DNA of 45,511 bases from Escherichia phage vB_Ec-G8: the sequence record PQ433350.1; one strand, given 5' to 3'. The notes beneath the pieces were generated by a model. The model was not told the DNA's origin. It made no database searches and saw nothing but the letters and a program-made list of their open reading frames with translations. This document shows positions 3,496-44,954 of this stretch, in pieces (position 1 is the stretch's first letter; each line of letters starts with the position of its first letter). The translations under genes and the position numbers were made by a program.

Positions 3496-4456
3496 AGTAG
3501 AAGTTTGGAATGAATGGAAGTGCCATTGATATATTTGTGTCGAAAGGGAACTGAGCGCCTGATTGCGTCGAGTAGTTACCAATTACAGTACCTGGCACTG
3601 CTCTAACGTTACCACCAGACATGCAAATGCCCTTGTATCGCAAGTTGTTATACCCTCCAGTAACTCTAGTCGTAGCGCCACATCTAAGAAGCGGGAAGAA
3701 TCCACCATTTATTGACTGATATACATTGCTTATTTGTATAAATCCACTAAGTACAAATGGTCGCCTAACGCTGGAGAAAACAATCTGACCAGAGCTATTT
3801 GACATTGTAAGACCAGGTCCAGCTACTGGAGGTTCATTCCTGAATATCACCAACTGAACGTAAGTGCTTGCCGCCACATCATCTATACCACCATAGTTTA
3901 CATCACGGCACCATATCGTACTCCCATCACTCTCCAGAGACACGTTTGGATTATCCCACTTACCGAATGGTATTCCACTGACTGGCAGTGCTGATGATCC
4001 GTTAACCTGAATACCACCAACCCATGCCGCTGACATTAGCCGTGAGTTGCTTGATATTGCCAAGAAGTCAGTTGAGTTTTCAACTAGTATTCCTGGGCTT
4101 GATGAAGATGAGGCTGGTAGAATTTCAAAACAATTACCAGCAAAGTCAATTATTCGACCATTGGCTCCGTTAAAGTTACTAAGTGTTATCCTGCCAGTGC
4201 CGTCATTTACCTTTTGGAATCCGTTCATGTAATAAACTTCTGGTATAACATCGTAAGCGTCAACGTGGACTGCCTTCGTTGGTAGGCAGAAAGCCGTAGA
4301 GCCATGAGACATTGTCAATCCAAAATCCCACGAACTTGCTGGGGTTGAAAGTCCATTGGTATTTATTGATCCAGTCACAGCAGGTGCCCTTAACCCTGCC
4401 GTAATCTCCATCGCTGGCCTTCCGTCATTAAGGTCAATCAATATACCCTGCGGCAT
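3494..4456 (-). CDS. Putative receptor-binding / tail-associated protein (320 aa), Gly/Ser/Asn-rich
   Basis: ORF-track start is GTG; first ATG at 4456 overlaps the TAA of the upstream lipoprotein gene (TAATG coupling); sits immediately downstream of gpJ on the opposite strand; function inferred from position only. Confidence 0.5.
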   Translation of the reverse strand: MPQGILIDLNDGRPAMEITAGLRAPAVTGSINTNGLSTPASSWDFGLTMSHGSTAFCLPTKAVHVDAYDVIPEVYYMNGFQKVNDGTGRITLSNFNGANGRIIDFAGNCFEILPASSSSSPGILVENSTDFLAISSNSRLMSAAWVGGIQVNGSSALPVSGIPFGKWDNPNVSLESDGSTIWCRDVNYGGIDDVAASTYVQLVIFRNEPPVAGPGLTMSNSSGQIVFSSVRRPFVLSGFIQISNVYQSINGGFFPLLRCGATTRVTGGYNNLRYKGICMSGGNVRAVPGTVIGNYSTQSGAQFPFDTNISMALPFIPNFY

Positions 4457-4701
4457 TATTTCCACTCCTTGCTGCCATGATCTGCAATAGAGCCACCGTA
4501 ACCTCCGCCAGCCTTGCTTTCAATTCCGGCGTAGCGAACATCAACCTCACCAGCCGGAACAACTACGCCACCTTTCCATTTAGCTACGCACACACCATTT
4601 GCTTGTGTTGCACACCAACCATCCGGGCGAGGACCAGATGAGCAACCTACCATCATGATTGCTGCTGCGGCGATGATTACTGATTTGATTAAGTTAGTCA
4701 T
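4456..4701 (-). CDS. cor: Cor/Llp-like superinfection-exclusion lipoprotein (81 aa)
   Basis: N-terminal hydrophobic signal ending in lipobox MVGC-SS, small Gly-rich mature part; AAGGA RBS 9 nt upstream; coupled to the downstream 320-aa ORF. Confidence 0.7.
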
Positions 4702-4767: not shown

Positions 4768-4787
4768 TTTAGCAATTAGTGCTATTT
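4768..4787 (-). promoter_or_regulatory. Boundary element copy (AATAGCAC-N5-TGCTAAA core), precedes cor
   Basis: Minus-oriented core; Rha TAG stop inside; leader ...CCACATCGAAACGAAACGAA then cor ATG. Confidence 0.6.
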
Positions 4788-5429
4788 CTTTTCGAGTAAC
4801 ATCTTGATGTCAATGCCGAGATTATTTTCAATCAATCCAGTCAGTGCATCCGTCTTTTCTTTAAGGGCAAAACACTGAGCTTCATACTTAAATCTTTCCT
4901 CCATCTCGTCAGAGCGACTAACCCAGCACTGGCGAGCCTCGCAAGCCAGTATGTCGAGTTTTTCATCGGTATTCTTATCCATGAGTAAGATCTCATTTAT
5001 TCTTTGCTCTGCAACAATGCGCTGACTAAGGTGTGCATTTTGCGCATTAGCCACACCAAGCATCATTCGCACTTCTTTTAACTCATCAATGCTTACCATC
5101 TGACTGATTACTTCTGCTTGTTTTTTAACTAACGCCTCAAGCTCATGAAGTCTTTTAACTACCGCGTATCGAAGTGCGGGGCTGTAACCCATAACCAATG
5201 TTTCAGTTAAATCGCGGTTAAGAAGAACTTCAGAAACAAAGCCGCGATAGTCTATAAGTGCTTGATAATCCTCATGACCCAAATTTGGGTTATGCCCCGA
5301 CGCTAGGATGTCGATTATCATATCCTCACAGTCACGAATAACGTGACCATGTCTTTTCCCAGTTAATTCCGCAATTTCTTTCGTGCTCATCATGGTTTTC
5401 GGCTGTTCTTTGTACAATTTAATCTTCAT
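4782..5429 (-). CDS. Rha-family phage regulatory protein (antirepressor-like)
   Basis: Rha-type N-terminal block (MSTKEIAELTGKRHGHVIRDCEDMI); ORF track begins at 5534 but a purine-rich SD precedes the in-frame ATGs at 5435/5429; start ambiguous; TAG stop lies inside a boundary element. Confidence 0.7.
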   Translation of the reverse strand: MKIKLYKEQPKTMMSTKEIAELTGKRHGHVIRDCEDMIIDILASGHNPNLGHEDYQALIDYRGFVSEVLLNRDLTETLVMGYSPALRYAVVKRLHELEALVKKQAEVISQMVSIDELKEVRMMLGVANAQNAHLSQRIVAEQRINEILLMDKNTDEKLDILACEARQCWVSRSDEMEERFKYEAQCFALKEKTDALTGLIENNLGIDIKMLLEKK

Positions 5430-5526
5430 TTTCATCTCTCTTTGGTTTTGTGATACGAAATTTTCGTAGCGCAAGCGGCACCATTTCCGCCATGCGCCTA
5501 AATATACGTAAAGATAGTCAGTTGTC

Positions 5527-11724: not shown

Positions 11725-11742
11725 ATAGCACGAATTGCTAAG
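11725..11742. promoter_or_regulatory. Boundary element core upstream of tail fibre gene (orientation ambiguous)
   Basis: ATAGCACGAATTGCTAAG, 21 nt upstream of the minus-strand ATG 11701. Confidence 0.5.
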
Positions 11743-15342: not shown

Positions 15343-15762
15343 ATGCAAATTACAGACAAAGAAGATTACATTGAGTTTTACCCAGGCCCGGTTAAGTCAT
15401 GCCCGAAAGAGGATGACGAACAAATCTTTTGCTCTGATTGGGTTAAGTATAACTACCCGGAGATGGTATTTTTCCACTGCGTAAATGAGGGCAAGAAAAC
15501 CATTGGTCAAGCAAGAAAAGATCAGGCGAAGGGGTTGCTTAAGGGCGTATCAGACTGCTTATTCCTGATACCTGAATCGCTGCGAGGGAAATATCCTTTC
15601 GGGGCTATAGAGCTAAAGAGGGCTGGTAAAACTCAAGCAAGTCCAGTCAGCGAAGAACAGAAAGCATTTCTGAAAAGTGTAATGGAATCAGGCGGTTTCT
15701 CGGCAGTCGCCTACGGACGTGAGGGTTTTCTTGCAGCATTCAAAGAAATGATTTCAAAATAG
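15343..15762 (+). CDS. VRR-NUC domain nuclease
   Basis: 139 aa; PD-(D/E)xK-type motif (SDCLFLIP...GAIELKR); start overlaps the helicase stop; TAG stop inside a boundary element. Confidence 0.7.
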   Translation: MQITDKEDYIEFYPGPVKSCPKEDDEQIFCSDWVKYNYPEMVFFHCVNEGKKTIGQARKDQAKGLLKGVSDCLFLIPESLRGKYPFGAIELKRAGKTQASPVSEEQKAFLKSVMESGGFSAVAYGREGFLAAFKEMISK

Positions 15763-15777
15763 CACGAATTGCTAAAG
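15759..15777 (+). promoter_or_regulatory. Boundary element copy, precedes 15839 ORF
   Basis: ATAGCACGAATTGCTAAAG with upstream TAG stop inside. Confidence 0.6.
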
Positions 15778-15838: not shown

Positions 15839-16033
15839 ATGACCACTATCTATACCGGTAAAATCTACGAATCACGCAAAACTGGTTATGAATATGAATT
15901 AGTAATCACCGCTGATTGTTATGTTCTTGATGATGGTGAAGGTTATGCTTTCGAAGTTAGTCCAACCTACAAAGATGATTTAGAAACTGTTAAAAACGCA
16001 TTTGGCGAAAAATTTGATGAGGTGTCAGAATGA
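15839..16033 (+). CDS. Hypothetical protein (64 aa)
   Basis: ATG 15839 preceded by the conserved element leader (CATCGAAACGAAA...GAGAGAGA); ORF-track start 15791 is TTG. Confidence 0.5.
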   Translation: MTTIYTGKIYESRKTGYEYELVITADCYVLDDGEGYAFEVSPTYKDDLETVKNAFGEKFDEVSE

Positions 16034-19085: not shown

Positions 19086-19262
19086 ATGACTAAAATGATT
19101 TATTGCACCAAGAACAACTCCAAGACGCTTCCATTTACAGTTAACCAGCCGTACAATGCAGAGTATCAGGGTGACGGATATTACAAGATTTACGGAGATG
19201 ATATGACGTGGATTTTAGCACCGATTGATGGTTCGCTGGTTGAATTTATTATAGCAGACTAG
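19086..19262 (+). CDS. Hypothetical protein (58 aa)
   Basis: ATG 19086 preceded by the conserved leader (CACATCGAAACGAG...CGAGGA); followed by a strong terminator. Confidence 0.45.
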   Translation: MTKMIYCTKNNSKTLPFTVNQPYNAEYQGDGYYKIYGDDMTWILAPIDGSLVEFIIAD

Positions 19263-22543: not shown

Positions 22544-22562
22544 TTATCAATTTGTGCTATTT
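22544..22562 (-). promoter_or_regulatory. Boundary element variant, precedes P-loop ATPase gene
   Basis: Minus-strand AAATAGCACAAATTGATAA followed by TGaTATAAT extended -10. Confidence 0.6.
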
Positions 22563-22911
22563 ACAGGTATTGAGCCTCGAAGTGGTACGTCTGGCAAAGA
22601 GTGTAGAAACCAACATCCTCGCTACGGTAGAGCTGCCAGGCATTACCATCCTCATCGTAAATGTAACCAGCATTTTGCCCCAATCCTGCATGAAGTGCCA
22701 CCTGGTAACGTTTCTCTTCTTTAAAGTCTTTTTTAACTCCTGATTTATGGTTAACCTTCGTGCAGTAAATAGTTTTGGTCTTAATGTATTTGCCGCGCTC
22801 TTCCAGGTTAATCCATTTGCCATCTTTCTTGATTTGTTCTACACCATCTTTAACTCGAGCTTTGTATAATACGTTATCGTTGCTAATGAAGTTTTTAGTA
22901 ATCGTTGTCAT
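22561..22911 (-). CDS. Hypothetical protein (116 aa)
   Basis: ORF preceded on the minus strand by element leader (TCATCGAAACGAAACACAAAAAGG); TAA stop abuts an element. Confidence 0.5.
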   Translation of the reverse strand: MTTITKNFISNDNVLYKARVKDGVEQIKKDGKWINLEERGKYIKTKTIYCTKVNHKSGVKKDFKEEKRYQVALHAGLGQNAGYIYDEDGNAWQLYRSEDVGFYTLCQTYHFEAQYL

Positions 22912-23047: not shown

Positions 23048-23230
23048 CTATCTATAAAATTCGGCCTCTTCTGTAGTTACTGGTATTGTGTAATTATTTA
23101 CCTTAATAATCCATGTATAACCATCATAATCAATCGCATCATAAACATCACCAACATTAACGCCTATTTTGTCAAGACTATCTGAACTTGTTTCATATGT
23201 TACTGTATTATCTGTAATTATTACTTTCAT
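23048..23230 (-). CDS. Hypothetical protein (60 aa)
   Basis: ATG 23230 preceded by element leader (CCATCGAAACGTGAGG); ORF-track start 23290 rejected. Confidence 0.45.
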   Translation of the reverse strand: MKVIITDNTVTYETSSDSLDKIGVNVGDVYDAIDYDGYTWIIKVNNYTIPVTTEEAEFYR

Positions 23231-26201: not shown

Positions 26202-26219
26202 ATAGCACGAATTGCTAAA
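26202..26219 (+). promoter_or_regulatory. Boundary element copy, precedes 26287 ORF
   Basis: TGA-ATAGCACGAATTGCTAAA; TGaTATAGT extended -10 downstream. Confidence 0.6.
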
Positions 26220-28121: not shown

Positions 28122-28261
28122 GCTTCATTGAATACGCAATTGCATGTGAACGACTGGTCTTTGATATGAAGACCTTCCACTGGTTCATCATCAAGGATTT
28201 AATCAAGCCGTACAAGCAAGGTGTTACGCCAGAGGCTTTTGTTAAGTCATTCTATAAATAG
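28118..28261 (+). CDS. Hypothetical small protein (47 aa)
   Basis: ATGA-coupled; TAG stop inside an element. Confidence 0.35.
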   Translation: MSFIEYAIACERLVFDMKTFHWFIIKDLIKPYKQGVTPEAFVKSFYK

Positions 28262-28275
28262 CACGAATTGCTAAA
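28258..28275 (+). promoter_or_regulatory. Boundary element copy, precedes 28332 ORF
   Basis: ATAGCACGAATTGCTAAA, GCCA-tgga-TGGC hairpin, TATAAT, CCACATCAACACAACGAGAG. Confidence 0.65.
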
Positions 28276-29841: not shown

Positions 29842-31407
29842 ATGTCTTTAGTATGGGAAGAAATGACCATTCAGGAAAAGATGGCTGTTAAGGCGATATC
29901 AGAACACAGCTTCGAGGGTTTCCTTCGTTGCTGGTTCCAGATTACACAAGGCGAACGATACATCCCTAACTGGCATCACAAGTACTTGTGCAGAATCATT
30001 GACGAGATTATTGCAGGCGAAAGAAAGGACACCATTATCAACATAGCACCAGGCAGCGGAAAGACGGAAATTGCCTCAATCCACTTCCCGGCCTATTCGA
30101 TGGTTAAGCTTAGGAAGGTGCGCAACCTTAACATCTCTTTTGCTGACTCCCTGGTTAAGCGTAACTCGAAGCGAGTGCGTGACCTTATCAAGTCTCAAGA
30201 ATTTCAGTCACTCTGGCCATGCAAGTTTGGCACTTGCAAAGACGATGAGCTTCAGGTTCTTGATGAGAGTGGCAAGGTTAGATTTGAGTCAATATCAAAG
30301 GCGGCTGGAGGCCAGATTACTGGCGCTCGCGGTGGGTACATAACCGAAACATACAGCGGAGCCGTTCTTTTGGATGACTTTGACAAACCCGCAGATATGT
30401 TATCAGCAGTGTACCGCTCGAATAATCACGTAATGCTTAAAAATACGATTCGCTCACGTCGAGCCAGTTCTGTAAAAGGCAAAGCGACACCAATCATTTC
30501 GATACAGCAGCGGCTTCACGTCAATGACTCAACCTGGTTCATGATGGAGGGGGGTATGGGTATCGACTTTGACTTGGTTAAGATACCGGCTCTGGTTACT
30601 GAGGATTACATCGACTCGCTCCCTGACTGGATTAAAGATCAGTTTGCTGAGGACGTACTAAGCAGCGAATATATTGAGCGAGATGGCGTAAAGTACTACA
30701 GCTACTTTCCTAAAAAGGAATCCGTAAACGACCTGGTGGCAATGTGGGATAGCGACCCCTACACTTTCCTCAGCCAGTATCAGCAGGAGCCAGTAGCGCT
30801 GGGTGGCAACCTAATTAACGTGGACTGGTTCCAGCGAATCAGTGATACGTTCAGACCTCCAGCTAAGTACGACTATCGATTCATAACTTGCGATACCGCA
30901 ATGACCACTAAAAGTTACAGCGACTTCTCTGTTCTTCAGTTGTGGGGCTATAAAGATGCTAAGATTTACCTTATTGATCAGCGCAGGGGTAAATGGGAGG
31001 CCCCAGAGTTGGAGGCTGAACTGCTGGACTTCGAGAAGAAATCAAGGGCAACCAGTCAGTCAGATGGTATCCTCAGAAAGATTATTATCGAGAAGAAAGC
31101 GTCTGGTATCGGCCTGATTCAATCAGCTGGCAGGGTTATGCGAACACCGATAGAGCCATACGTACCGGATAATGACAAGCTAACCAGGGTGATGAGTGCA
31201 CTACCACAGATTAAGGCTGGTAACGTAGTTCTTCCAGAGTCATCGCCGTGGCTAAACGGATTGCTCACTGAGGTTGCGGCTTTTACGGCAGATGACTCGC
31301 ATAAGCACGACGACCAAATTGACTGTCTAACAATGGCGGTAAACCTTGTGCTTAACATCGCGGATGATCCTAAGGCGAGACTGATGCGCATAGCGGGAAT
31401 GAAATAG
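29842..31407 (+). CDS. Terminase large subunit
   Basis: 521 aa; N-terminal ATPase with Walker A (APGSGKT), C-terminal nuclease-like acidic residues; TAG stop inside an element. Confidence 0.9.
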   Translation: MSLVWEEMTIQEKMAVKAISEHSFEGFLRCWFQITQGERYIPNWHHKYLCRIIDEIIAGERKDTIINIAPGSGKTEIASIHFPAYSMVKLRKVRNLNISFADSLVKRNSKRVRDLIKSQEFQSLWPCKFGTCKDDELQVLDESGKVRFESISKAAGGQITGARGGYITETYSGAVLLDDFDKPADMLSAVYRSNNHVMLKNTIRSRRASSVKGKATPIISIQQRLHVNDSTWFMMEGGMGIDFDLVKIPALVTEDYIDSLPDWIKDQFAEDVLSSEYIERDGVKYYSYFPKKESVNDLVAMWDSDPYTFLSQYQQEPVALGGNLINVDWFQRISDTFRPPAKYDYRFITCDTAMTTKSYSDFSVLQLWGYKDAKIYLIDQRRGKWEAPELEAELLDFEKKSRATSQSDGILRKIIIEKKASGIGLIQSAGRVMRTPIEPYVPDNDKLTRVMSALPQIKAGNVVLPESSPWLNGLLTEVAAFTADDSHKHDDQIDCLTMAVNLVLNIADDPKARLMRIAGMK

Positions 31408-31421
31408 CACAAATTGCTAAA
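31404..31421 (+). promoter_or_regulatory. Boundary element copy inside late operon, precedes moron 31477
   Basis: ATAGCACAAATTGCTAAA, GCCA-cgga-TGGC, TATAGT, TTCACACAAAAGAGAGGAG. Confidence 0.65.
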
Positions 31422-31476
31422 CACTAAAGCCACGGATGGCGTATAGTTACTTCACACAAAAGAGAGGAGAAGAAAG

Positions 31477-31809
31477 ATGAAGGCAGTATTTAAAGGTTAT
31501 AAAAAAGCTGGTCGTTTGGAATTTACTATTGGTAAGATTTATGAGTTATCAGAAACACGCGGAGTGGGTGGATATATGGGGGTGACTGATGACGGTGGCT
31601 TTCGGGCAATATTTATCCCAGACAACATCTATGATTTCGAGGTGTTGATCCCAGATGAATTTATCGGTAAAGAAAGGCAATTCAAATATTACATCAATGG
31701 CGAAGCTGTTTCTAAAGTCAAGTTCGATGATACACTGTTATGCGTCAAGGAATTTAAATCTGATGGCATTGATACATCATCAATCAAGTTCGAAGTAAAA
31801 TTCGAGTAA
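31477..31809 (+). CDS. Hypothetical moron protein (110 aa), paralog of 43772-44137
   Basis: Own element + leader upstream and terminator downstream; shares GYKK N-terminal and FEV-x-FE C-terminal blocks with the 43772 ORF. Confidence 0.55.
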   Translation: MKAVFKGYKKAGRLEFTIGKIYELSETRGVGGYMGVTDDGGFRAIFIPDNIYDFEVLIPDEFIGKERQFKYYINGEAVSKVKFDDTLLCVKEFKSDGIDTSSIKFEVKFE

Positions 31810-31830
31810 CCACAAAAGCTATGATAAACT

Positions 31831-31853
31831 AGCCCCTAAATGGGGCTTTTTTA
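31831..31853 (+). terminator. Terminator-RBS module before portal
   Basis: AGCCCC-taaat-GGGGCT + T6 then ATTGGAGA RBS. Confidence 0.75.
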
Positions 31854-31865
31854 TTGGAGAAAAAC

Positions 31866-33092
31866 ATGGTCAAGACAGACAGCTACGCCAATATCTTTCT
31901 AGGCGGCAGTGATGGTAGTGAGATTTACGGGAGCTTGCAGAACCAATCGCCTACAATTCTGGCTTCGCTTTATGCGGATAATGCACTGGTGCGTCGAATT
32001 ATCGACACAATCCCGGAGACGGCATTAGCGGCAGGATTCCACATTGACGGCATTGATGACGAGCCTGCATTCTGGTCTCGCTGGGACTATCTGGAGTTGA
32101 CAAGGCACATCAACGAAGCGTGGTCGTGGGCTAGATTGTTCGGTGGAGCGGCAATTGTCGCTATCGTTAAGGACAACAGAGCTCTAACAAGCCCAGTCAG
32201 AGAAGGTTCTGAGCTTGAAACTGTTCGCGTATACGACCGCACACAAGTAAAAGTCCAAACTCGAGAGGAGAATCCGCGCAACGCACGTTTTGGTAATCCA
32301 CTAACCTATCGCATCACCACTAATGAGAGCGATATGTTTTACGATGTGCATTACAGCCGCATTCATATCATCGACGGAGAGCGAATCCCTAACGTAATGC
32401 GTCGGCAAAATGATGGCTGGGGCCGTAGCGTTCTCTCCAGTGATATTCTTGACTCAATCAAGGATTACACCAACTGCGAACGACTAGCGACTCAACTGCT
32501 CAAGCGTAAACAGCAAGCGGTCTGGAAAGTCAAGGACCTGGCATTGCTTTGTGATGATAGTGAAGGAGTTGGCGCGGCTCGTTTACGTCTCGCTCAAGTT
32601 GATAACAACAGCGGAGTTGGTCAGGCAATTGGCATTGATGCGGAATCGGAAGAATACAGCATTCTGAACTCTGATATTGGTGGGATTGATGCGTTTCTGG
32701 ATAAGAAGTTTGATAGAATCGTTGCGCTGAGCGGTATTCATGAAATCATCTTGAAGAACAAAAACGTCGGCGGCTTATCATCAAGCCAGAATACAGCGCT
32801 TGAGACATTCCATAAGCTAGTAGATCGAAAGCGTAACGCTGAACTGCTGCCGATTCTCGGGTTCCTGATTCCGTTCATTTCAGACGAGCAAGAATGGTCA
32901 GTGGAGTTTAATCCTCTGGCTCAGGAATCAAGTAAAGATAAAGCGGAGACCCTTGAGAAGAACGTAAACAGTATAGCAACACTAATTGCAGCTGGCGCTA
33001 TGGATACTAGCGAAGCGCGTGATACACTACGAACTATCGCGCCAGAGATTAAGATTGGCGATGGCAATATCGAACCTAAAGAAACAGTCTAG
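31866..33092 (+). CDS. Portal protein
   Basis: 408 aa from ATG 31866 (GGAGA SD; ORF-track start 31854 is TTG); position after terminase. Confidence 0.85.
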   Translation: MVKTDSYANIFLGGSDGSEIYGSLQNQSPTILASLYADNALVRRIIDTIPETALAAGFHIDGIDDEPAFWSRWDYLELTRHINEAWSWARLFGGAAIVAIVKDNRALTSPVREGSELETVRVYDRTQVKVQTREENPRNARFGNPLTYRITTNESDMFYDVHYSRIHIIDGERIPNVMRRQNDGWGRSVLSSDILDSIKDYTNCERLATQLLKRKQQAVWKVKDLALLCDDSEGVGAARLRLAQVDNNSGVGQAIGIDAESEEYSILNSDIGGIDAFLDKKFDRIVALSGIHEIILKNKNVGGLSSSQNTALETFHKLVDRKRNAELLPILGFLIPFISDEQEWSVEFNPLAQESSKDKAETLEKNVNSIATLIAAGAMDTSEARDTLRTIAPEIKIGDGNIEPKETV

Positions 33093-38476: not shown

Positions 38477-38482
38477 AACACA

Positions 38483-38506
38483 AACCCTCTTCGGAGGGTT
38501 TTTTAT
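38483..38506 (+). terminator. Rho-independent terminator after major tail gene (UUCG loop)
   Basis: AACCCTC-ttcg-GAGGGTT + T6. Confidence 0.8.
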
Positions 38507-38509
38507 TAC

Positions 38510-38528
38510 ATAGCACTTTTTGCTAAAG
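38510..38528 (+). promoter_or_regulatory. Boundary element copy inside tail operon, precedes moron 38587
   Basis: ATAGCACTTTTTGCTAAAG, TGTATAGT, CTCATCGAAAAGAAATGAGAG. Confidence 0.65.
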
Positions 38529-38586
38529 CCTTGATTCAATCTTACTGTATAGTTATCTCATCGAAAAGAAATGAGAGATTAAAGAA

Positions 38587-38835
38587 ATGAATAACGTTAA
38601 AAACATCATCAAGCTTGCTGCAGTTCTGGTTGCTTTTTATGCAGCAGTTCAGATCGTCAACCCAACTGGCGAGGCTGATGCGAATAGCAAGGCAAAAAAA
38701 TATACTGTTGAGTTTGCTAAAGCTGAGCGAACATGCAAGGAACTTGTAGGTGGTAAAGTTGACCAAATAATGAAATATGGCAAAGAGGTTTGTAAGGACT
38801 CGGCTGCTAAGATTGCAAAAGAAAACACTAAGTAA
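38587..38835 (+). CDS. Small secreted/membrane-anchored moron protein (82 aa)
   Basis: N-terminal signal-like hydrophobic segment (IIKLAAVLVAFYAAVQIV), Lys-rich with 2 Cys; own element + leader upstream. Confidence 0.5.
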   Translation: MNNVKNIIKLAAVLVAFYAAVQIVNPTGEADANSKAKKYTVEFAKAERTCKELVGGKVDQIMKYGKEVCKDSAAKIAKENTK

Positions 38836-42553: not shown

Positions 42554-42904
42554 ATGGCTATTGATACTTTTAATTACTGCACTCAAGTCCAAAATGGAGG
42601 CGGCTCATTCTCTAACACTAACAACGTGCGAATTGTTAGCTTCGGCAATGGTTACGAGCAGCGTGGGACTGGCGGTTATCGAAGTAACAAGCGAAGCTAC
42701 CAGATGACTTACACAAACAAGGACTGGCGGGAGGTGATGGAATTTTGCTTTAACCACATCATTACCCCGTTCTTCTGGACTACGCCGCATGGTGACACAT
42801 CAATGTTTGTGATTCAGCAAGATAGCATTAGCGTCACGCCACTCAGTAAGGAAGTTCAGACTGTAAACATGCAATTCGTGGAAGTCTTTAGCTCAATGCG
42901 TTAA
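42554..42904 (+). CDS. Minor tail protein (lambda gpM-like)
   Basis: 116 aa; position between tape measure and gpL-like gene. Confidence 0.75.
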   Translation: MAIDTFNYCTQVQNGGGSFSNTNNVRIVSFGNGYEQRGTGGYRSNKRSYQMTYTNKDWREVMEFCFNHIITPFFWTTPHGDTSMFVIQQDSISVTPLSKEVQTVNMQFVEVFSSMR

Positions 42905-42908
42905 ACTA

Positions 42909-42930
42909 AGCCCCATTAGGGGCTTTTTTA
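42909..42930 (+). terminator. Terminator-RBS module before gpL
   Basis: AGCCCC-atta-GGGGCT + T6 then ATTGGAGA. Confidence 0.7.
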
Positions 42931-42942
42931 TTGGAGAAATAT

Positions 42943-43698
42943 ATGTTAAGTCCAAAGTTTGAAAATCAGTTGCAAAGCCTTTTCCCTGGAGAGATTGTGA
43001 CACTAATCCAGGTTGACGGAACGTCCTTCGGGAGTCTCGTTTATTCGTTCCACAATGAGAACATCTCATACACGCCAGAAGAAATCATGCTTGCCCAGAT
43101 GAATGGAGAGCCATTGCCAGAGAAGACGATCACATTTCGTGGTGAAGAGTACGGACCTAGACCATTTGGAATCTCTGGTATCAATATGACTTCTGACGGA
43201 AAAGCCAACAAGGTTACATTAACAGTATCAAACGTAGACCAGCGCATTAGCGCATTGATTCGCACTTACAATGGATTGGTCAAGGCTAAGGTTACAATCT
43301 GGATTACCACGCGCGATAACATCAATGAAGACGGAAGTATTGCTGATGGGGACTATCGCAGATTTGTTTACTTCATTGAGCGACCAAAGCAGGTTGATTA
43401 CAAAACGGCATCATTTGAGCTAAGTAGCCCGATGGATATGGATGGTATTTATATCCCCGCTAGACTTGTTCAGTCTGTTTGTTATTTCGCTTCTCGCGGA
43501 TGGTATCGAAGTGGTAATGGTTGCGACTACGCTGGTAATCGTTACTTTGACAAGGATGATAATCCAGTAGCAGACCCTTCATTAGACTTCTGCGCAGGAA
43601 CTGTTAACAGTTGCAAGCTTAGATTTGGTGAGAATAATCAGCTTTCATTTGGCGGATGCGCAGCAGCAAGCCTTCAGGCAAAGGCGAATCAGAGTTAA
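42943..43698 (+). CDS. Minor tail protein (lambda gpL-like) with C-terminal Cys cluster
   Basis: 251 aa from ATG 42943 (GGAGA SD; ORF-track start is TTG); C-terminal Cys cluster (C-x...C-x...C-x...C) as in Fe-S-binding gpL. Confidence 0.8.
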   Translation: MLSPKFENQLQSLFPGEIVTLIQVDGTSFGSLVYSFHNENISYTPEEIMLAQMNGEPLPEKTITFRGEEYGPRPFGISGINMTSDGKANKVTLTVSNVDQRISALIRTYNGLVKAKVTIWITTRDNINEDGSIADGDYRRFVYFIERPKQVDYKTASFELSSPMDMDGIYIPARLVQSVCYFASRGWYRSGNGCDYAGNRYFDKDDNPVADPSLDFCAGTVNSCKLRFGENNQLSFGGCAAASLQAKANQS

Positions 43699-43717
43699 AT
43701 AGCACTTTTTGCTAAAG
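43699..43717 (+). promoter_or_regulatory. Boundary element copy inside tail operon, precedes moron 43772
   Basis: TAA-ATAGCACTTTTTGCTAAAG, hairpin, TATAGT, CTCACACAAACGAGAGG. Confidence 0.65.
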
Positions 43718-43771
43718 ACGAACAGCAAAGGATGGCGTATAGTTACCTCACACAAACGAGAGGATATAAAA

Positions 43772-44137
43772 ATGTTCTACATTGAATTCAACGGATACAA
43801 AAAAGACAAAGAAGAGTGCGGTGGTTTATTTTCTGTTGGTAAAACTTACGCATGTGATGTTGTTGACTCAGGTGTTTACTATCAGGTTATGGATGATGAA
43901 GGTAAAGCTGTAAAATTTAGAAGCATGTTTTATGATAATTATTACAGCTTTTCACGAGTTGAACATAATGAGGTGGAGGTCAATTTGTTAAGTGATACAA
44001 ATGATGGCAAGATGAAATATAGAATGAATGGTATTGATGTTACTAAGTCATTCTTTGATGAAAAACTGATTGAGGCTGAGGGGCTTAAATCCAAGGGTGT
44101 TTCAGTGCTTATAGATTTTGAGGTTTATTTTGAATAA
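43772..44137 (+). CDS. Hypothetical moron protein (121 aa), paralog of 31477-31809
   Basis: ATG 43772 preceded by full element + leader (CACACAAACGAGAGGATATAAAA); terminator downstream. Confidence 0.5.
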   Translation: MFYIEFNGYKKDKEECGGLFSVGKTYACDVVDSGVYYQVMDDEGKAVKFRSMFYDNYYSFSRVEHNEVEVNLLSDTNDGKMKYRMNGIDVTKSFFDEKLIEAEGLKSKGVSVLIDFEVYFE

Positions 44138-44156
44138 ACTAAATTAGTGTTAAACT

Positions 44157-44184
44157 AGGTCAATCGAAAGGTTGGCCTTTTTTA
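44157..44184 (+). terminator. Terminator-RBS module before gpK
   Basis: AGGTCAA-tcgaaagg-TTGGCCT (one G-U) + T6 then ATTGGAGA. Confidence 0.6.
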
Positions 44185-44195
44185 TTGGAGATAAA

Positions 44196-44954
44196 ATGTT
44201 AACACCAAAAGTTAAGCTGGAAATCTTCCAGCACGCAAAAGAAGTCTTCCCGCATGAGTGCTGCGGGATTGTTACGCAGAAAGGTAGGGCGCAGAAATAC
44301 CACAGAATCAAGAACGCCAGCAAAGACCCTGAAAATGAATTCATCCTTGATTCAAATGAGTATGCAGATGTTCTCTTTGAGTTGGCTCACAATGAATCTA
44401 TTGTTTACGTAGTCCACTCCCATACTGGTGATGGAGCGACAACGAGGCCTAGCCCAGCAGATATCTGTAGCTGCAATGAATGCGAGATCCCTTACGTTAT
44501 TGTAAGCATACCAGAGGGAGATATGCGGATTCTTGAACCATCAACCATGCCGCTGATTGGTCGACCATGGGGGCTTGGTAGCTTTGACTGCTGGGGTCTT
44601 GTGATGGGATTCCACAAGAAATACGGAGTAAAACTGAATGACTACCGAGTCAATTACCCGTGGTGGGAGAAAAGGTACAATGAAAATACCTATGACGACA
44701 ACTGGATTAAGGAAGGATTTGAGCTGGTAAAAACTTCAGATATTCCGATTGGATCAATGATTATGATGCAGGTGCAAAGTGATGTGACAAACCACGCCGG
44801 AATCTACATTGGAAATAACAGATTCATTCATCACCTTTATGGCAAAATGAGTTCAGTTGATATCTACTCCGATTACTGGCGAGAGCGCACTGTGCGAATC
44901 GTTCGCCATAAGGATTTACCAGAGGATGTAATTTATGACCCAGAAACTGATTGA
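44196..44954 (+). CDS. Tail assembly protein (lambda gpK-like; JAMM/MPN + NlpC/P60 domains)
   Basis: 252 aa from ATG 44196; JAMM motif (HSHTGDGATTRPSPADI), C-terminal NlpC/P60-like Cys-His region. Confidence 0.85.
   Translation: MLTPKVKLEIFQHAKEVFPHECCGIVTQKGRAQKYHRIKNASKDPENEFILDSNEYADVLFELAHNESIVYVVHSHTGDGATTRPSPADICSCNECEIPYVIVSIPEGDMRILEPSTMPLIGRPWGLGSFDCWGLVMGFHKKYGVKLNDYRVNYPWWEKRYNENTYDDNWIKEGFELVKTSDIPIGSMIMMQVQSDVTNHAGIYIGNNRFIHHLYGKMSSVDIYSDYWRERTVRIVRHKDLPEDVIYDPETD

What the first reader, a model, noticed from the sequence alone, without database searches (positions are those of the whole stretch)
31477..31809. Paralogous moron pair inside the late operon, each with its own early-type element and terminator
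ORFs 31477-31809 (between terminase and portal) and 43772-44137 (between gpL-like and gpK-like genes) share an N-terminal GYKK block and a C-terminal FEV-x-FE ending. Each is preceded by a full boundary element and followed by a hairpin+T6 terminator fused to the next gene's RBS. Two diverged copies of one small gene, independently expressed within the structural module, point to an accessory function rather than virion assembly.
Basis: seen in the sequence. Interest (0 to 1): 0.6.

Follow-up and report, generated by a model that had tools for sequence, protein, structure and literature searches.

The report
Mobile accessory gene cassette, two copies
Two diverged copies of one small gene, each with its own promoter and terminator, sit as optional inserts between essential virion genes of a T1-like E. 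coli phage. They look like accessory "moron" cassettes, not the virion parts that databases call them.

Summary
ORF1 (31477-31809, 110 aa) and ORF2 (43772-44137, 121 aa) are true paralogues: BLASTP E=7e-10, and Smith-Waterman 115 against 32±6 for 5000 shuffles. Both match phrog_14592. Each follows a near-identical copy of the T1-type 21-nt repeat plus a TATAGT -10 box. Each precedes a hairpin-U6 terminator fused to the next gene's RBS.

The window is a Drexlerviridae (T1-like) phage. Close relatives with about 87-90% identical flanks carry both cassettes, one, or none. T1 has neither. JulesPiccard carries the site-2-type cassette, terminator included, at a third junction (gpM/gpL).

The ORFs are AT-rich (33-37% GC against about 46%). 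They evolve at dN/dS 0.3-0.55, against 0.05 for terminase and portal. Homologues also lie among early or replication genes of an rV5-like myovirus and a ~42-kb podovirus.

The predicted protein is soluble and acidic. It has an SH3-like barrel, possibly DUF7244-related, joined to a conserved ββαβ domain that has no structural neighbour. I found no proteomic support for the "virion structural protein" label.

The moron reading is supported. Biochemical function is unresolved; my best guess is a host- or defence-interaction factor. The repeat element was already described in TLS and T1.

The parts
31402..31422 (+). 21-nt T1-type direct repeat (core TAGCACAAATTGCTAAA, 31405-31421). It overlaps the terminase stop codon TAG.
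   Evidence: Consensus aaATAGCACnnnTTGnTAAAA was described for TLS/T1 in PMC11447400.
31442..31447 (+). -10-like hexamer TATAGT, 20 nt downstream of the repeat core. No canonical -35 at 17±1 nt.
31477..31809 (+). ORF1, 110 aa, pI 5.3, no transmembrane segment. SH3-like β-barrel (residues 1-57), linker, ββαβ domain (68-110). Member of phrog_14592.
31831..31853 (+). Intrinsic terminator (AGCCCC-loop-GGGGCT plus T6). Also present at empty sites in OzMSK and T1.
31856..31868 (+). GGAGA RBS and ATG of the portal gene, fused to the terminator tail.
43697..43717 (+). 21-nt repeat of the site-2 cassette (core 43700-43716). It starts directly after the gpL-like stop codon TAA.
43738..43743 (+). -10-like hexamer TATAGT of the site-2 cassette.
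43772..44137 (+). ORF2, 121 aa, pI 4.7. Paralogue of ORF1 with the same two-domain layout. 33% GC.
44157..44184 (+). Cassette-borne terminator (GGTCAATC-loop-GGTTGGCC plus T6). Absent from the empty site in CEB_EC3a. Conserved in site-2 cassettes and in the site-3 cassette of relatives.
44187..44198 (+). GGAG RBS and ATG of the gpK-like gene, supplied by the cassette.
42903..42937 (+). Unoccupied terminator-RBS module (AAACTA-hairpin-TTTTTTATTGGAGA) at the gpM/gpL junction. JulesPiccard carries a family member at this position.

Best explanation
ORF1 and ORF2 are two diverged copies of a horizontally mobile, dispensable accessory cassette. It is a moron in the Hendrix sense, lodged at intergenic junctions of the late operon of a virulent T1-like (Drexlerviridae) phage.

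Shown:
- Each unit consists of the T1-type 21-nt repeat, a near-consensus -10 box, a conserved leader and RBS, and a small ORF.
- The site-2 unit also carries its own terminator and a replacement RBS for the downstream gene.
- The units are present or absent independently at three or more junctions.
- They are AT-rich.
- They evolve far faster than their neighbours but still under purifying selection.
- Homologues occur in early or replication regions of unrelated coliphages.

Inferred:
- The genes are transcribed by host RNA polymerase from their own repeat-associated promoter, independently of late-operon read-through.
- The product is a soluble cytoplasmic protein, not a virion part.
- The fast-evolving N-terminal SH3-like barrel recognises a target, and the conserved C-terminal ββαβ domain is the constant module for oligomerisation or effector contact.
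- It most likely binds an E. coli factor or an anti-phage defence component. Two divergent copies would then widen the range of targets covered.
For: - Paralogy and shared regulatory flanks.
- Empty site 2 in CEB_EC3a reads TAA-GGGGAAATAA-ATG with no terminator. Empty site 1 in OzMSK keeps only the terminator. T1 has neither gene.
- Mixed occupancy. Both cassettes: SU57, phiEB49, ACG-M12. Site 1 only: CEB_EC3a. Site 2 only: BEK6. Neither: OzMSK, BEK1-1 and most of the other phages listed, including many isolated on E. coli DSM 12242.
- The same cassette type, with the GGTCAATCGAnAGATTGGCC terminator, lies at gpM/gpL in JulesPiccard.
- GC is 37.2% (ORF1) and 33.3% (ORF2), against 45.9±3.5% for the late region.
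- dN/dS is 0.30-0.55 (N domain up to 0.62, C domain 0.08-0.35), against 0.05 for TerL and portal at similar dS.
- Amino-acid identity to JulesPiccard is TerL 94% / ORF 33% / portal 93%.
- Homologues sit next to DNA polymerase A among small genes of an rV5-like contig, and in the early small-gene block of a ~42-kb podovirus.
- The proteins are acidic and have no hydrophobic segment.
- The AF2 models are confident: pLDDT 88 for the full protein and 95 for the C domain.
Against: - There are no expression data, so the promoter is a sequence inference. It lacks a -35 box, and the role of the 21-nt repeat is an acknowledged open question.
- RefSeq and PHROGs label the family "virion structural protein".
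- Published virion proteomes covered only 3-7 gel bands, so a minor 12-14 kDa component would have been missed.
- The C domain has no informative structural neighbour.
- Elevated dN/dS may reflect relaxed constraint rather than an arms race.
Confidence: 0.6

Rival explanations
1. They are minor virion or decoration proteins, as the database label says. One would be associated with the head or portal and the other with the tail tip, each encoded next to its assembly partners.
For: RefSeq and PHROG use the label "virion structural protein", category head and packaging. Both genes lie inside the structural module. SH3-like domains do occur in phage decoration and adhesion proteins (general knowledge).
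Against: - Close relatives and T1 build virions without one or both genes.
- The same family sits among early or replication genes in myo- and podoviruses with different virion architectures.
- The genes have their own non-late promoter element.
- The label has no traceable experimental basis. The Rogue1 and AHP24-group proteomes do not list it.
- The site-1 gene is frameshifted in phiEB49 and ACG-M12.
Confidence: 0.1
2. The cassettes are essentially selfish or neutral passengers. They persist because the conserved promoter and terminator-RBS flanks let them recombine between junctions, and the protein gives the phage no benefit.
For: Distribution is patchy, with many empty sites. The same junctions host HNH homing endonucleases in relatives. 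dN/dS is high. Frameshifted alleles exist.
Against: - dN/dS is clearly below 1, with a strongly conserved C domain (0.08-0.35).
- The fold is maintained and confidently predicted.
- The family is retained in three phage lineages.
- The protein encodes no nuclease or recombinase, so it has no means of driving its own spread.
Confidence: 0.15
3. The units are mainly transcriptional punctuation. Their promoter and terminator tune the expression ratios of downstream late genes (portal; gpK/gpI), and the ORF is incidental.
For: The T1 late region has been described as a series of "transcriptons" bounded by terminators. The terminator is fused to the next gene's RBS. At least nine + strand hairpins lie between late genes, by my reading.
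Against: - The cassette promoter is separated from the downstream gene by the cassette's own terminator.
- Empty sites work without the promoter.
- The ORF is under purifying selection, and its protein family exists elsewhere without this context.
Confidence: 0.05

Closest known systems
Morons of lambdoid phages (Juhala/Hendrix concept; e.g. HK97/λ lom, bor)
   Same: A promoter-gene-terminator unit lies between two genes that are adjacent in relatives. Nucleotide composition is atypical and the unit is dispensable for virion assembly. It sits within the late or tail operon.
   Different: The host phage is virulent, so there is no prophage-state expression. The promoter is the phage family's own 21-nt-repeat-associated type. 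The site-1 terminator pre-exists at the junction. Two paralogous copies and a third site are in use.
T1/TLS 21-nt intergenic direct repeat and "transcriptons" (PMC11447400; Roberts et al. 2004 as cited there)
   Same: The consensus is the same, aaATAGCACnnnTTGnTAAAA. [quoted passage not shown] There are 22 copies here.
   Different: That paper lists the repeats without linking them to mobile gene cassettes in the late operon. Their function is still stated to be unknown.
Gp54 of phage Bas11 (PDB 9AXB), the CapRelSJ46 trigger (PMC11578894)
Pfam DUF7244 (PF23896) and DUF6501 small phage β-barrel proteins
   Same: They share the FTVGKxY...GY..v.DDxG motif and the predicted fold. The family profile hits tandem DUF7244/DUF6501 repeat proteins. 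Foldseek matches DUF7244 proteins. The window itself encodes a DUF7244 gene at 19086-19262.
   Different: ORF1 and ORF2 do not reach Pfam thresholds. hhalign gives only E=0.0019 and 14% probability. DUF7244 proteins lack the C-terminal domain.
PHROG phrog_14592 ("virion structural protein")
   Same: Both ORFs are full-length members (E of about 1e-34 and 1e-37).
   Different: The functional label is not supported by anything found here.

Membership tests
Moron (Hendrix/Juhala definition) | The gene lies between two genes that are directly adjacent in related phages. | tested here: met
   Site 2 is empty in CEB_EC3a, where gpL TAA-10 nt-ATG gpK. Site 1 is empty in OzMSK. Both sites are empty in T1.
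Moron (Hendrix/Juhala definition) | Own promoter upstream of the gene. | tested here: inconclusive
   The conserved 21-nt repeat plus TATAGT -10 box and leader are shared with 20 other gene starts. There is no -35 box and no transcript data.
Moron (Hendrix/Juhala definition) | Own terminator downstream of the gene. | tested here: met
   Hairpin-U6 of -12 kcal/mol after both ORFs. It is cassette-borne at site 2 and site 3. At site 1 the terminator is also present in empty sites.
Moron (Hendrix/Juhala definition) | Nucleotide composition distinct from the surrounding genome. | tested here: met
   GC is 37.2% and 33.3%, against 45.9±3.5% in 350-nt windows of the late region.
Moron (Hendrix/Juhala definition) | Expressed independently of the late operon (classically from the prophage). 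| not testable with these tools
   The phage is virulent. This needs RNA-seq or 5'-end mapping.
phrog_14592 | Full-length match to the family profile. | tested here: met
   E=2.4e-34 and 2.2e-37, covering the whole profile.
Virion structural protein (database label) | Detected in purified particles, or required for assembly. | tested here: not met
   No proteomic record found. The genes are absent from many close relatives and from T1. Direct proteomics for this phage cannot be done here.
Pfam DUF7244 (PF23896) | Score above the Pfam gathering threshold. | tested here: not met
   No Pfam hit at E<=1. Profile-profile comparison gives E=0.0019 and probability 14%. Fold and motif resemblance only.
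Gp54(Bas11)-like CapRel triggers | Sequence homology to Gp54 and activation of CapRelSJ46. | tested here: not met
T1-like 21-nt intergenic repeat | Consensus aaATAGCACnnnTTGnTAAAA, intergenic, oriented with transcription, at a fixed distance from the start codon. | tested here: met
   Exact core matches at 31405 and 43700. The ATG lies 55 nt after the core at both.

The most novel reading that the evidence does not exclude
The phrog_14592 family is a modular counter-defence (or defence-triggering) effector of coliphages. A rapidly diversifying SH3-like sensor or binding domain is fused to a conserved ββαβ module. It spreads as a self-contained promoter-gene-terminator cassette between landing-pad junctions of the Drexlerviridae late operon and into other phage families. 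Carrying two divergent copies broadens the set of host immune systems the phage can handle.
Probability: 0.25. Interest if true: 0.6.

Novelty: new member of a known kind. Interest (0 to 1): 0.4.

Why it matters
It corrects a propagated annotation: "virion structural protein" for a family that behaves as a dispensable accessory gene. It also shows that virulent T1-like phages carry moron-style cassettes built from their own enigmatic 21-nt repeat promoter. These insert at a small set of terminator-RBS junctions, which gives a handle on how accessory genes are shuffled in this widely used phage family (BASEL Bas01-13). Finally, the cassettes are natural test constructs for the open question of what the 21-nt repeat does. 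They nominate a small, fast-evolving two-domain protein as a candidate host- or defence-interaction factor.

Tried and rejected
- Pfam and NCBIfam scans of both ORFs gave no hits.
- A PDB sequence search with the family profile returned only designer "Cake" β-propeller repeats and FABP, with per-domain i-E-values of 30-60. I rejected these as repeat artefacts. The long repeat proteins P0059, P0066 and P0070 are probably similar summed-score artefacts.
- An HMM search of all six-frame window ORFs for further paralogues found none beyond the two. The best other hit was the DUF7244 ORF at E=0.1-0.2.
- An ungapped comparison of all 22 promoter elements failed to pair the two cassettes, because of a 1-nt indel. 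The gapped alignment and the unique 27-mer do pair them.
- A literature search for BASEL locus tags of family members found nothing.
- I searched for Drexlerviridae transcriptomes. The only RNA-seq found was for a T5-like phage.
- I looked for the origin of the "virion structural protein" label in the Rogue1 and AHP24-group proteomics papers. The 13.5-kDa band G there is ORF12/13, between the capsid and tail genes, so it is not this family.
- I considered a GIY-YIG or homing-nuclease reading of the KYYING motif. I rejected it on size and on the absence of any family hit.

Full report
**What the window is**

The terminase-portal and tail-tip regions match about 85-100 Drexlerviridae (T1-like) coliphages at about 80-90% nucleotide identity. 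The closest are vB_EcoS_CEB_EC3a, vB_EcoD_SU57, ACG-M12, phiEB49 and the BASEL "Piccard" phages. Pfam confirms the neighbours of the two ORFs:
- terminase large subunit (29842-31407)
- Phage_portal_3 (31866-33092)
- λ M-like (42554-42904)
- λ L-like (42943-43698)
- λ K-like JAB+NlpC/P60 (44196-44954)
- λ I-like (44935-)

**The observation**

ORF1 (31477-31809, 110 aa) and ORF2 (43772-44137, 121 aa) align over their full lengths at 39% identity, E=7e-10.
- The Smith-Waterman score is 115, against 32.3±6.2 (maximum 69) for 5000 shuffled pairs. Each half is significant on its own, z=8.6 and 9.6.
- Both are full-length members of phrog_14592. A family HMM finds no third copy in the window.
- The upstream 85 nt are 86% identical. 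A 27-nt stretch spanning the -10 box and the leader occurs only at these two places.
- Downstream, each ORF is followed by a -12 kcal/mol hairpin plus U6, running straight into ATTGGAGA-N5-ATG of the next gene.

**The "boundary element"**

The core TAGCACnnnTTGCTAAA occurs 22 times (0.7 expected). It is always co-oriented with the downstream gene, and where a downstream ORF was found the ATG is usually 52-71 nt (once 147 nt) after the core. It is the 21-nt direct repeat aaATAGCACnnnTTGnTAAAA already reported for TLS, T1, Rtp and Rogue1. The authors list its function as an open question (PMC11447400).

In this window a TATAAT-like hexamer lies 20 nt downstream of the core in most copies. There is no -35 hexamer at a canonical spacing. 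Nineteen copies lie in the non-structural 1-28.3 kb. Three lie inside the late region: at 31405, 38511 and 43700. "Early-type" is thus a reasonable inference, not a demonstrated fact.

**Cassette behaviour**

- Empty site 2. In CEB_EC3a the gpL stop and the gpK start are separated by ten bases (TAA-GGGGAAATAA-ATG). The window instead has repeat, promoter, ORF2, terminator and a new RBS there.
- Empty site 1. In OzMSK the terminase stop is followed directly by the terminator and RBS, so at site 1 the insert is repeat, promoter and ORF only.
- T1. It has a terminator but no gene between terminase and portal, and its gpL and gpK genes overlap.
- Occupancy is mixed:
  - both sites: SU57, phiEB49, ACG-M12, SCS31, ECH1, AugustePiccard
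  - site 1 only: CEB_EC3a, PCEc3, IME253
  - site 2 only: BEK6
  - neither: OzMSK, Msk, BEK1-1, BEK2/3, A110b and most of the other phages listed, including many isolated on E. coli DSM 12242
- Third site. JulesPiccard carries a family member between gpM and gpL. Its C domain is of the site-2 type and its terminator is the same GGTCAATCGAnAGATTGGCC sequence, so the whole unit has moved.
- Landing pads. The window has an unoccupied terminator-RBS module at that gpM/gpL junction (42903-42937). All three modules share AAACTA-hairpin-TTTTTTATTGGAGA with different stems.
- The same junctions carry HNH homing endonucleases in some relatives.

**Evolutionary signature**

- ORF1 is 37.2% GC and ORF2 is 33.3% GC. 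The late-region mean is 45.9±3.5%.
- Against CEB_EC3a, dS is similar for ORF1 (0.38), TerL (0.51) and portal (0.47). dN/dS is 0.36 for ORF1, against 0.05 for both flanking genes.
- Across seven allele pairs dN/dS is 0.17-0.55. It is higher in the N domain in five of the six pairs where both could be computed (N 0.29-0.62, C 0.08-0.35).
- Protein identity to JulesPiccard is 94% / 33% / 93% for TerL / ORF / portal. To IME253 it is 97.5% / 35.5% / 92%.
- The promoter and terminator flanks stay about 90% conserved.
- In phiEB49 and ACG-M12 the site-1 gene is split by a frameshift in the linker, at the KKKQ codons. Without reads I cannot tell whether this is real or a sequencing error.

**Distribution of the family**

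The family is tiny: 36 clusters at 90% identity. Of 1.84 billion 50%-identity representatives, 45 score E<=1e-3, and some of the long repeat proteins among those are probably spurious. All traceable members are coliphage sequences.

Two contexts are outside Drexlerviridae:
- P0033 and P0034 lie among small genes next to DNA polymerase A in an rV5/Vequintavirinae-like contig.
- P0023 lies in the early small-gene block of a ~42-kb podovirus related to vB_EcoP_P64441 and PAS7, overlapping its upstream gene and without a cassette promoter.

A protein shared by sipho-, myo- and podoviruses, and encoded among non-structural genes in two of them, is unlikely to be a virion component.

**The protein**

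- Both copies are acidic (pI 5.3 and 4.7) and have no hydrophobic segment.
- AF2 with the family alignment gives pLDDT 88. It predicts a five-stranded SH3-like barrel (residues 1-57), a low-confidence variable linker, and a ββαβ domain (68-110). The C domain reaches pLDDT 95 when modelled alone.
- The N domain shares the motif FTVGKxY...GY.v.DDxG with DUF7244 and DUF6501 proteins:
  - the family profile hits tandem-repeat proteins of those families
  - Foldseek matches DUF7244 proteins
  - the window encodes a bona fide DUF7244 early gene at 19086-19262
  - however, Pfam itself does not hit ORF1 or ORF2, and hhalign gives only E=0.0019 with 14% probability, so the link is plausible but unproven
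- Architectures with two N domains (P0069), or with the N domain alone (P0055-P0063), exist.

**The database label**

"Virion structural protein" appears in RefSeq and PHROGs, but I found no experimental source.
- The Rogue1 study identified three proteins.
- The AHP24-group study identified seven. Its 13.5-kDa band is ORF12/13, between the capsid and tail genes.

These studies are too shallow to exclude a minor component.

**Conclusion**

The finding is real and the moron interpretation is supported. The concept (morons, T1 "transcriptons") and the repeat element are known. The new points are:
- phrog_14592 genes are mobile promoter-gene-terminator cassettes
- they use three or more terminator-RBS junctions
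- their domain make-up is an SH3-like barrel plus a ββαβ domain
- the structural label is probably wrong

The biochemical function is not established. My committed guess is a cytoplasmic host- or defence-interaction factor whose variable SH3-like domain sets specificity. Confidence is about 0.6 for the explanation as a whole and about 0.25-0.3 for that specific mechanism.

Noticed in passing
window, 22 sites listed (e.g. 15760-15776, 28259-28275, 31405-31421): The 21-nt repeat core is a near-palindrome (TAGCA-N5-TGCTA). In most copies it lies 20 nt upstream of a -10-like hexamer, with no -35 box. If transcription starts about 7 nt after the hexamer, the dyad is centred near -42. That is the position of a class II activator site and suggests a dimeric DNA-binding protein, phage- or host-encoded. 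A Rha-family regulator gene lies at 4782-5474.
   Followed up: partly
window 38511-38835: This is a third repeat-promoter unit inside the late region. It drives an 82-aa protein with an N-terminal hydrophobic segment (phrog_22925). It lies between the major-tail-protein terminator (38482-38501) and the tail chaperone gene. T1 has no gene at this position. It is probably another moron-like insert.
   Followed up: partly
window 31826-31860, 42903-42937, 44152-44191: Three terminator-RBS modules share AAACTA-hairpin-TTTTTTATTGGAGA but have different stem sequences. They look like recurrent landing pads for cassettes. By my reading, at least nine + strand terminator-like hairpins lie between late genes, so late transcription must read through them or be re-initiated.
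   Followed up: partly
L009 about 1990-2010 (phiEB49) and L010 (ACG-M12): The site-1 gene is interrupted by a frameshift in the linker, at the KKKQ codons. This leaves a stand-alone N-domain ORF (68 or 102 aa) with the C domain in another frame. It could be a pseudogene, a domain split, slippage or a sequencing error.
   Followed up: partly
window 19086-19262; also 15839-16033, 23048-23230, 22561-22911: The first is an early gene for a DUF7244 protein (E=1e-29). The other three are small β-rich early ORFs with a similar GxxY...DDxG-type motif, each behind its own 21-nt repeat. The phage appears to carry a set of small SH3-like accessory proteins.
   Followed up: partly
window 11726-11742 and 26203-26219: These two copies of the repeat have no obvious downstream ORF. 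The one at 11726 is followed by a strong hairpin (cctcccgaaggagg) instead of a gene.
   Followed up: no
L016 (JulesPiccard) 847-1221; L017 (AugustePiccard) 850-1167: N- and C-domain types recombine. JulesPiccard's gpM/gpL copy and AugustePiccard's gpL/gpK copy combine different N-domain types with the site-2-type C domain. This indicates domain shuffling within the family.
   Followed up: partly
window 4456-4701 (- strand): A phage lipoprotein family gene (PF24052, E=2e-38) lies behind a repeat promoter. I did not examine its function; a surface or exclusion role is only a guess.
   Followed up: no
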